Below, piece after piece: positions 39,001-42,000 of a stretch of DNA of 64,000 nucleotides. Under the pieces are notes generated by a model. That model made no database searches, was not told the origin of the DNA, and was given only the letters and a program-made list of their open reading frames with translations. The stretch is from the human T2T-CHM13v2.0 reference genome, Homo sapiens, in NCBI RefSeq assembly GCF_009914755.1, contig NC_060934.1; one strand, given 5' to 3'. A program made the translations under genes and the position numbers. Each line of letters starts with the position of its first letter. The first letter of the stretch is position 1.

Positions 39001-42000
39001 CAGCACCATGTCGCACTTATTCTAAAATTGACCACATAATTGGAAGTAAAGCACTCCTCAGGAAATGTAAAAGAACAGAAATCACAAAAAACTGTCTCTC
39101 AGACCACAGTGCAATCAAATTAGAACTCAGGATTAAGAAACTCATTCAAAACTGCACAACTACATGGAAACTGAACAACCTCCTCCTGAATGATTACTGG
39201 GTAAATAATTAAATGAAGGCAGAAATAAAGATGTTCTTTGAAACAAATGAGAAAAAAGACACAACGTATCAGAATCTCTAAGACACATTTAAAGCAGCGT
39301 GTAGAGGGAAATTTATAGCACTAAATGCCCACAAGAGAAAGCAGGAAAGATCTAAAATTAGACTATTAAAATAAGATTTTAATTGTGATGTTAGACACCC
39401 TAACATCACAATTAAAAGAACTAGAGAAGCAACAGCAAACACATCCAAAAGCTAGCAGAAGACAAGAAACAACTAAGATTGGAGCAGAACTGAAGGACAT
39501 AGAGACACAAAAAACCCTTCAAAAAATCAATGAATCCAGGAGCTGGTTTTTTGAAAAGATCAACAAAATTGATAGACTGCTAGAAAGACTAATAAAGAAG
39601 AAAAGAGAGAAGAATCAAATAGACGCAATAAAAAAATGATAAAGGGGATATCACCACTGATCCCACAGAAATACAAACTACCATCAGAGAATACTATAAA
39701 CATTTCTACACAAATAAACTAGAAAATCTAGAAGAAATGGATAAGTTCCTGGACACATACACCCTCCCAAGACTAAACCAAGAAGAAGTCGAATCTCTGA
39801 ATAGACCAATAACAGGCTCTGAAATTGAGGCAGTAATTAATAGCCAACCAACCAAAAAAAAGTCCAGGACCAGATGGATTCACAGCCAAATTCTACCAGA
39901 GGTACAAAGAGGAGCTGGTACCATTCCTTCTGAAACTATTCCAATCAATAGAAAAAGAAGGAATCCTCCCTAACGCATTTTATGAGACCAGCATCATCCT
40001 GATACCAAAGCCTGGCAGAGACACAGCAAAAAAAGAGAATTTTAGACCAATATCCCTGATGAACATCAATGCGAAAGTCCTCAATGAAATACTGGCAAAC
40101 CGAATCCAGCAGCACATCAAAAAGCTTATCCACCCCAATAAAGTCGGCTTCATCTCTGGGATGTAAGGCTGGTTCAACAAACGCAAATCAGTAAACGTAA
40201 TCCATCACATAAACAGAACCAATGACAAAAACCACATGATTATCTCAATAGATGCAGAAAGGCCTTTGACAAAATTCAACAGCCCTTCATGCTAAAAACT
40301 CTCAATAAACTAGGTATTGATGGAACATATCTCAAGATAATAACAGCTATTTATGACAAACCCACAGCCAATATCATACTGAATGGGCAAAAACTGGAAG
40401 CGTTCCCTTTGAAAACCAGCACAAGACAAGAATGCCCTCTCTCACCACTCCTATTCAACATAGTGTTGGAAGTTCTGGCCAGGGCAATCAGGCAAGAGAA
40501 AGAAAAAAAGGGTATTCAGTGAGGAAAAGAGGAAGTCAAATTGTCCCTGTTTGCAGATGACATGATTGTATATTTAGAAAACCCCAACGTCTCAGCCCCA
40601 AATCTCGTTAAGCTGAGAATCAACTTCAGCAAAGTCTCAGGATACAAAATCAACGTGCAAAAATCACAAGCATTCCTATACACCAATAACAGACAAACAG
40701 AGAGCCAAATCATGAGTGAACTCCCATTCACAATTGCTTCAAACAGAATAAAATACCTAGGAATCCAACTTACAAGGGATGTGAAGGACCTCTTGAAGGA
40801 GGACTACAAACCACTGCTCAATGAAATAAAAGAGGACACAAACAAATGGAAGAACACTCCATGCTCATGGATAGGAAGAATCAATATAGTGAAAATGGCT
40901 ATAATGCCCAAAGTAATTTATAGATTCAATGCCATCCCCATTAAGCTACCAATGACTTTCTTCACAGAATTGGAAAAAACTACTTTAAAGCTCATATGGA
41001 ACCAAAAAAGAGCCCACATTACAAAGACAATCCTAAGCCAAAAGAACAAAGCTGGAGGCATCACGCTACCTAACTTCAAACTATACTACACAACTACAAT
41101 AACCTAAACAGCATGGTACTGGTACCAAAAGAGATATATAGACCAATGGAACAGAACAGAGGCCTCAGAAATAACACCACACATCTGCAGCCATCTGATC
41201 TTTGACAAACTTGACAAAAACAAGAAACGGGGAGAAGATTCCTTATTTAATAAATGGTGTTGGGAAAACTGGCTAGCCATATGTAGAAAGCTGAAACTGG
41301 ATCCCTTCCTTACACCTTATATAAAAATTAATTTAAGATGGATTGAAGACTTATATGTTAGACTTAAAACCATAAAAACCCTAGAAGAAAACCTAGGCAA
41401 TACCATTCAGGCCATAGGCATGGGCAAGGACTTCATGACTAAAACACCAAAAGCAATGGCAACAAAAGCCAAAATTGACAAACGGGATCTAATTAAACTA
41501 AAGAGCTTCTGCACAGCAAAAGAAACTACCATCAGAGTGAACAGGCAACCTACAGAATGGGAGAAAATTTTTGCAATCCATCCATCTGACAAAGGGCTAA
41601 TATACAGAATCTACAAAGAACTTAAACAAATTTATAAGAGAAAAACAACCCCATCAAAAAGTGGGCAAAGGATATAAACAGACCCATCTCAAAAGAAGAC
41701 GTTTATGCAGCCAACAGACACATGAAAAAATGCTCATCATCACTGGTCATCAGAGAAATGCAAATCAAAACCACAATGAGATACCATCTCAGACCAGTTA
41801 GAATGGTGATCATTAAAAAGTCAGGAAACAACAGATGCTGGAGAGGATGTGGAGAAATAGGAACACTTTTACCCTGTTGGTGGGAGTGTAAATTAGTTCA
41901 ACTATTGTGGAAGACAGTGTGGCGATTCCTCAAGGAACTAGAACTAGAAATACCATTTGATCCAGCAATCCCATTACTGGGTATATACCCAAAGGATTAT

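What the first reader, a model, noticed from the sequence alone, without database searches (positions are those of the whole stretch)
41261..41411. 151-bp tract in L1 C identical to L1 A (12655-12805), suggesting A-to-C conversion
Seen: perfect identity over 151 bp including the variants TATATAAAA, AATTTAAG, GATTGAAG, CTTATATG and GACTTAAA, none of which occur in B at ~22440-22600. Surrounding A/C sequence differs frequently. C carries younger-type ATGTAGAAAGCTG and GTTAGAC here, where B has ATGCAGAAAA and GTAAGAC. A second identical tract of 107 bp pairs 12082-12188 with 40688-40794. Inference: recent conversion from A into C across 28.6 kb, possibly polymorphic or lineage-specific.
Basis: partly seen in the sequence, partly recalled or inferred. 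Interest (0 to 1): 0.75.

Follow-up and report, generated by a model that had tools for sequence, protein, structure and literature searches.

The report
Gene conversion between neighbouring L1 fossils
Two broken L1 retrotransposons 28.6 kb apart on human chromosome 10 share an identical 151-base patch whose combination of rare variants was found nowhere else in the genome, most likely because DNA repair copied one onto the other (gene conversion), a known process with no expected effect on function here.

Summary
Copies A and C are separate full-length, ORF-broken L1PA insertions, 8.7% different near the tract, yet identical over 151 bp. The tract carries five minority alleles. Their 57-bp core matches only A and C in CHM13 at up to 2 mismatches, against 10,652 hits for the common form, so a shared sublineage is rejected. 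Non-allelic gene conversion is the best explanation (about 0.9).

Three refinements. (2) 'Recent or polymorphic' is not shown: the tract probably extends to about 294 bp with three later differences (about 5 My, range 1-15). (3) The 107-bp tract is weaker evidence, with one shared allele at 0.9% frequency.

C also shares rare alleles with the inverted copy B (9 against 1.7 expected), so C is probably a mosaic of both neighbours. Two other neighbouring L1 pairs met by chance are even more homogenised. This is a clean new example of a known process, with no gene or annotated element affected. Interest is low to moderate.

The parts
7732..13941 (+). L1 copy A, full length, ORF-broken, with target-site duplication at 7732-7742 and 13931-13941; youngest of the three (L1PA5-like, label recalled from 3' end features, no call)
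   Evidence: best other copies 96-97% identical
21343..27797 (-). L1 copy B, full length, inverted relative to A and C, own target-site duplication at 21343-21355 and 27785-27797; oldest (L1PA7-like, label recalled)
   Evidence: best other copies 91-92%
36290..42523 (+). L1 copy C, full length, ORF-broken, own target-site duplication at 36290-36299 and 42514-42523; intermediate age (L1PA6-like, label recalled); likely a mosaic
   Evidence: best other copies 92-93%
41261..41411 (+). 151-bp tract in C identical to A 12655-12805; five minority alleles at C 41322, 41334, 41345, 41354, 41364
12655..12805 (+). Partner tract in A (probable donor); minority alleles at 12716, 12728, 12739, 12748, 12758
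41412..41554 (+). Probable extension of the tract (A 12806-12948): 143 bp with 3 differences, each private to one copy
40688..40794 (+). 107-bp tract in C identical to A 12082-12188; one shared rare allele (C 40744, A 12138); probable second patch
12082..12188 (+). Partner of the 107-bp tract in A
40511..40545 (+). 35-bp stretch of C with two rare alleles, identical to B 23304-23338 (minus strand): probable B/C conversion patch
   Evidence: 5 exact matches genome-wide, 2 of them B and C
41024..41086 (+). 63-bp run of C identical to B 22763-22825 (minus strand) with one rare shared allele: possible B/C patch

Best explanation
L1 copies A and C are independent insertions that share an identical 151-bp patch carrying five rare alleles, most likely because non-allelic gene conversion copied the patch from one to the other, probably from A into C. 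Inferred mechanism: a germline DNA break in one copy was repaired by homologous recombination without crossover, using the mis-paired neighbour 28.6 kb away as template, so the donor's private mutations were written into the acceptor while both flanks stayed in place. The tract was probably 150-300 bp, and the three differences downstream would be later mutations. The 107-bp patch is probably a second or discontinuous tract, and C probably exchanged older short patches with the inverted copy B. Shown: identity, uniqueness of the haplotype, separate insertions. Inferred: break repair, direction (about 0.7 for A to C), age (about 5 My, range 1-15).
For: The 57-bp core at up to 2 mismatches has 2 hits genome-wide, A and C; the common form from locus L070 has 10,652 hits. 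The best other copies scored (40 of 2138 candidates) have 4 or more mismatches in 151. Of 87 panel copies not selected on the tract, none carries 2 or more of the five alleles. Each copy has its own target-site duplication, so this is not a segmental duplication. Permutation: 0 of 10,000. For direction: C carries 40 rare alleles per kb outside the tracts (44 of 1095) but 8 in the 401 bp of the 294- and 107-bp tracts, which fits A's density (24 of 1099); likelihood ratios for A-to-C are 6.6 (294 bp) and 4.3 (107 bp). In the 107-bp tract C has the young state at A 12133, carried by 4 of 20 of its nearest copies. The tract size fits the 250-bp mean reported for human non-allelic conversion (bioRxiv 10.1101/135152, passages).
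Against: No orthologue or second haplotype could be examined, so the unconverted state was never seen. For the 151 bp alone the allele-density test gives no direction (ratio 1.0), and the density ratios for the longer tracts are inflated because identical runs are picked where differences are few. At A 12832, A has the old state shared with C (1 of 16 A-like copies do), which would fit C-to-A. The flank-versus-tract test (0 of 26 old-flank copies have C's four young tract states) is confounded, because C's old flank alleles may have come from B. Outside the tracts A and C share only 2 rare alleles against 0.84 expected. The 107-bp run is not significant from run length alone.
Confidence: 0.9

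Rival explanations
1. Same process, opposite direction: C was the donor and A the acceptor (a sub-case of conversion; the confidence is its share).
For: A carries the old state at 12832, inside the probable extended tract, and also at 11895 and 12556. The 151-bp core has no late diagnostic site and a density ratio of 1.0.
Against: Rare-allele density in the 294- and 107-bp tracts fits A. C has the young state at 12133. 14 of the 22 copies nearest to C lack its full set of young states at 12678-12822.
Confidence: 0.27
2. The five alleles mark a small source lineage (or a recombinant source element) from which A and C both inherited this segment.
For: Recombinant L1s exist: 35 of 2,267 young full-length loci were called recombinant (PMC13192797, passage).
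Against: No third copy within 2 mismatches of the core in the genome (control). A and C fall in different age classes at most diagnostic sites. Copies inserted millions of years ago would each have gained further private mutations in 151 bp.
Confidence: 0.02
3. A was transcribed, and its cDNA or RNA, not the chromosomal copy, served as repair template for C.
For: A is full length with a 5' UTR. cDNA-mediated conversion is described for yeast Ty and Tf2 (PMC6598467, section read).
Against: A diffusible template would not favour a neighbour among about 10,000 similar copies. A is ORF-broken. The inverted neighbour B also shares rare alleles with C.
Confidence: 0.04
4. Assembly or polishing artefact that copied A's bases into C.
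For: Only one assembly was examined; no reads were available.
Against: The copies differ by about 12% overall, which is easy for long reads. Polishing of the whole assembly identified 993 small variants, about two thirds at homopolymers or 2-mer repeats (bioRxiv 10.1101/2021.07.02.450803, passages). The tract fades into a near-identical extension with differences private to each copy.
Confidence: 0.02
5. Chance identity plus parallel mutation.
For: Runs of 151 bp or more do occur between less diverged unlinked copies (30 of 1866 pairs under 7% divergence, one of them the linked chr4 pair).
Against: Five minority alleles, at 5, 2, 0, 2 and 6 of 88 panel copies, would all have to recur; 0 of 632 pairs at matching divergence have such a run. 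Chance remains plausible for the 107-bp tract alone (about 0.2-0.25, my estimate).
Confidence: 0.01

Closest known systems
Non-allelic gene conversion between neighbouring Alu elements (Aleshin and Zhi 2010, seen only as cited in PMC8230782 passages and PMC6598467 text)
   Same: Detected by shared non-diagnostic mutations between nearby copies of a retrotransposon; young-to-old direction is the commoner one among Alus (40 against 12 cases, PMC8230782).
   Different: Here the elements are 6-kb L1s, and the distance (28.6 kb for A/C, about 17 kb for B/C) exceeds the roughly 10-kb range quoted for Alu.
Non-allelic gene conversion between human gene duplicates (bioRxiv 10.1101/135152, passages)
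   Same: Tract of a few hundred bp (mean 250 bp), flanks unchanged.
   Different: Their rate was estimated for pairs under 5% divergence and falls as copies diverge; these copies differ by 9-12%.
LTR-to-LTR conversion on the human Y (Trombetta et al. 2016, seen only as summarised in PMC6598467)
   Same: A cluster of derived alleles with an identifiable donor copy.
   Different: That work had population polymorphism data; here there is one haplotype, on an autosome, in a non-LTR element.
Apparent recombination in L1 copies (PMC7827986 passages; PMC13192797 passages)
   Same: L1 copies with exchanged segments: 1.3-2.8% of duplicated L1 pairs, and 35 of 2,267 young loci.
   Different: The passages read do not identify a neighbouring donor by private alleles; here the partner is pinned to one locus.

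Membership tests
Non-allelic gene conversion tract | Bounded segment far more similar between paralogues than its flanks | tested here: met
   0 of 151 against 8.7%; 0 of 10,000 permutations
Non-allelic gene conversion tract | Shared derived alleles private to the pair, not subfamily-diagnostic | tested here: met
   2 hits against 10,652; none of 87 panel copies has 2 or more of the five alleles
Non-allelic gene conversion tract | Paralogues arose separately; no crossover, deletion or duplication of flanks | tested here: met
   Each copy is bounded by its own target-site duplication; copy-specific states resume on both sides of the tract
Non-allelic gene conversion tract | Non-reciprocal transfer with a known donor | tested here: inconclusive
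   Density ratios 1.0, 6.6 and 4.3; site 12133 for and site 12832 against A-to-C
Non-allelic gene conversion tract | Unconverted state present in an outgroup or another haplotype | not testable with these tools
   The genome search tool holds no relatives for this genome
L1 source sublineage | Diagnostic alleles shared by several dispersed copies | tested here: not met
   No third copy within 2 mismatches of the 57-bp core
Segmental duplication | Uniform high identity extending into flanks | tested here: not met
   88% overall identity limited to the L1 body; different target-site duplications
Named L1PA subfamilies (PA5, PA6, PA7) | Best match to the Dfam or Repbase subfamily consensus | not testable with these tools
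   No repeat library was available; labels are recalled. The relative order A younger than C younger than B is shown

The most novel reading that the evidence does not exclude
Closely spaced full-length L1 fossils form local exchange networks. Copy C took or gave short patches to both its direct neighbour A (28.6 kb) and its inverted neighbour B (about 17 kb) at 9-13% divergence, repeatedly and up to the last few million years. Such neighbour conversion is common enough genome-wide (two more homogenised pairs turned up by chance, one with 1,497 identical bases) to blur L1 subfamily labels and divergence-based ages.
Probability: 0.4. Interest if true: 0.5.

Novelty: new member of a known kind. 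Interest (0 to 1): 0.3.

Why it matters
The tract lies in broken L1s with no gene or annotated functional element in the window, so no functional effect is expected. Its value is as an unusually clean marker: the partner is pinned to one locus out of about 10,000, at a distance and divergence beyond the ranges quoted for Alu and gene duplicates. It shows that 'shared rare haplotype plus proximity' can map L1-L1 conversion in complete genomes. That would make the distance, orientation and divergence limits of ectopic repair measurable, and would show how far conversion distorts L1 dating.

Tried and rejected
Sublineage, segmental duplication, chance and assembly artefact were considered and rejected (see rivals).

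A junction test at the tract's left edge was not decisive: C's 42-mer has 109 exact matches and B's has 578. The flank-versus-tract test looked decisive (0 of 26) but was downgraded after searches showed B/C sharing.

B/C sharing was not significant in the short region A 12050-12990 (2 alleles; 16 of 78 panel copies share 2 or more with B), and B/C informative-site runs were not significant (p 0.33). It appeared only over 11100-13350 and in the 35-mer count. A/B sharing: 1 against 1.1 expected. One of the two neighbour pairs fetched as a side test (chr8, 20 kb apart) showed no tract.

A recalled PRDM9-type motif has no match near either tract (6 matches in the window, the nearest at 13734).

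Rows dropped: L009 (poor alignment), L044 (near-duplicate of L043; kept only), L134 (no alignment), and the window's own copies. Panels are BLAST top hits, or the first 20 usable chromosome 1 motif hits, so they are biased and not random. Earlier findings were not available, and three papers sought by id were not held.

Full report
Observation. Both identities are exact and maximal: A 12655-12805 equals C 41261-41411 (151 bp) and A 12082-12188 equals C 40688-40794 (107 bp). The window holds three full-length L1PA copies: A (+), B (-) and C (+). They are 86-88% identical pairwise, each is bounded by its own target-site duplication, and none has an intact ORF2 (the longest ORFs are 480 and 473 aa). 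They are therefore separate insertions and not a duplication. The best other genomic matches are 96-97% for A, 92-93% for C and 91-92% for B, so A is the youngest. The labels L1PA5-, PA6- and PA7-like are recalled from 3' end features and come from no call; L1Pa5 peaked about 25 MYA (PMC7449397, passage).

Is it more than chance? Among 770 variable three-way sites, the tract holds 18 consecutive sites where A equals C and B differs; 0 of 10,000 permutations reach this. Among 3,003 pairs from 78 panel copies, 0 of the 632 at 7-9% divergence have a run of 151 or more. A and C differ by 8.7% outside the tracts. Runs of 107 or more are commoner: 3 of 632, and 87 of 1007 at 5.5-7% divergence.

Are the variants private? 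The five shared alleles occur in 5, 2, 0, 2 and 6 of 88 panel copies not selected on the tract, and none of 87 fully covered copies has two of them. The 57-bp core searched with up to 2 mismatches gives 2 hits in 3.1 Gb, A and C. The common form of the same stretch gives 10,652 hits, so the search is sensitive. The best other matches to the whole tract have 4 or more mismatches (40 of 2138 candidates scored). This rejects the sublineage reading. The 107-bp tract has one shared minority allele, seen in 35 exact matches against 3,968 for the common allele (0.9%). I put it at about 0.75-0.8 as a real conversion patch.

Extent and age. Downstream of the perfect run, A 12806-12948 differs from C at only three sites, each private to one copy. 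The tract may therefore be about 294 bp with later mutations. At an assumed 1e-9 substitutions per site per year this gives 5.1 My (1.1-14.9); 0 of 151 alone gives an upper bound of 12 My. Nothing here shows that the tract is human-specific or polymorphic.

Direction. However, 9 of the 22 copies closest to C at flanking diagnostic sites already have C's states at the five such sites in the tract. A stronger-looking test found that 0 of 26 copies with C's old flank alleles have its four young tract alleles. It is confounded, because C is young at most deep sites and its few deep-old alleles partly lie in runs identical to B. Other evidence for A-to-C: rare alleles are 24 of 1099 in A and 44 of 1095 in C outside the tracts, and the tracts look like A (ratios 6.6 for 294 bp, 4.3 for 107 bp, but 1.0 for 151 bp); and C is young at 12133, where 16 of 20 near copies are not. 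Against: A is old at 12832, as only 1 of 16 A-like copies is, though A is also old at two sites outside the tracts. My overall estimate is about 0.7 for A-to-C.

A third partner. Outside the A/C tracts, B and C share 9 rare alleles against 1.7 expected. The maximum among 946 unlinked pairs is 5, B's best panel partner shares 6 and C's shares 4. A 35-bp B/C stretch with two such alleles has 5 exact matches genome-wide, two of them B and C. The signal was not significant in a shorter region or by run test (p 0.33), so these would be short, older, eroded patches. An unsampled shared source lineage is not excluded. A/C outside the tracts (2 against 0.84) and A/B (1 against 1.1) show no excess.

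Mechanism. The most likely mechanism (inferred) is non-crossover repair of a germline break using a mis-paired nearby L1 as template, which copies the donor's private mutations over a few hundred bases and leaves the flanks intact. A cDNA template is less likely, since it would not prefer a neighbour. An artefact is unlikely given the divergence of the copies and the small number of polishing edits (bioRxiv 10.1101/2021.07.02.450803, passages), but no reads were seen.

How ordinary is it? Two other neighbour pairs surfaced by chance. An inverted chr4 pair (L043/L044) has 1,497 identical bases, with a nearby segment at 89.6%. An inverted chr12 pair 7 kb apart is 98.2% identical over 1,194 bp with 11 shared rare alleles. 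A third pair, on chr8, showed no tract. The first two may be long conversions, inversion junctions or local duplications; I did not resolve them.

Comparison with print. Conversion between transposable elements is established, mostly for Alu, with elevated rates within about 10 kb (PMC6598467, parts 1-2 of 4 read; PMC8230782, passages). The mean human tract is 250 bp and the rate falls as copies diverge (bioRxiv 10.1101/135152, passages). Exchanged segments in L1 are reported (PMC7827986, passages; PMC13192797, passages). Eight searches (listings only) showed no paper on this locus and no survey of conversion between neighbouring L1s. The library lacks most subscription papers, and no supplements were read, so catalogues of converted tracts there could include this one.

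Verdict. The feature is real and is best read as a non-allelic gene conversion tract (0.9), a new member of a known kind. Direction is probable, recency is unproven, and no function is implicated. Interest 0.3.

Noticed in passing
window 39361-39417: C has an insertion of about 34 bp containing a perfect 18-nt inverted copy (39377-39394) of the adjacent 39400-39417, a fold-back or template-switch type scar.
   Followed up: partly
window about 42120-42145 (A 13519-13541 homologue): Cluster of 8 consecutive changes private to C within 23 bp (permutation p 0.01); possibly a single multi-base replacement.
   Followed up: no
L043 1301-3000 and L044 (chr4, about 191.30 Mb): Inverted L1 pair about 5.5 kb apart with 1,497 identical bases, 22 shared rare alleles and a nearby segment at 89.6%: a long recent conversion or an inversion junction.
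   Followed up: partly
L149 and L150 (chr12, about 13.96 Mb): Inverted L1 pair 7 kb apart, 98.2% identical over 1,194 bp with 11 shared rare alleles.
   Followed up: partly
L151 and L152 (chr8, about 117.53 Mb): Direct L1 pair 20 kb apart sharing a rare 42-mer but only 92% identical, longest run 77 bp, 2 shared rare alleles: no clear tract.
   Followed up: yes
window 11895, 11915, 12556, 12832: A carries isolated old-type or rare alleles that match C (and at three sites B); 11915 is shared by all three copies but by 1 of 71 panel copies. Possibly very short patches into A.
   Followed up: partly
window 41641-41823 against 22026-22208: B and C are unusually alike here (5 differences in 149 in one window) and share rare alleles at the A 13074, 13084 and 13190 homologues: another candidate B/C patch.
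   Followed up: partly
window 14122-15949 and 60813-63224: Two older L1 fragments on the minus strand (66% and 75% identical to A, B and C) and many Alus.
   Followed up: no
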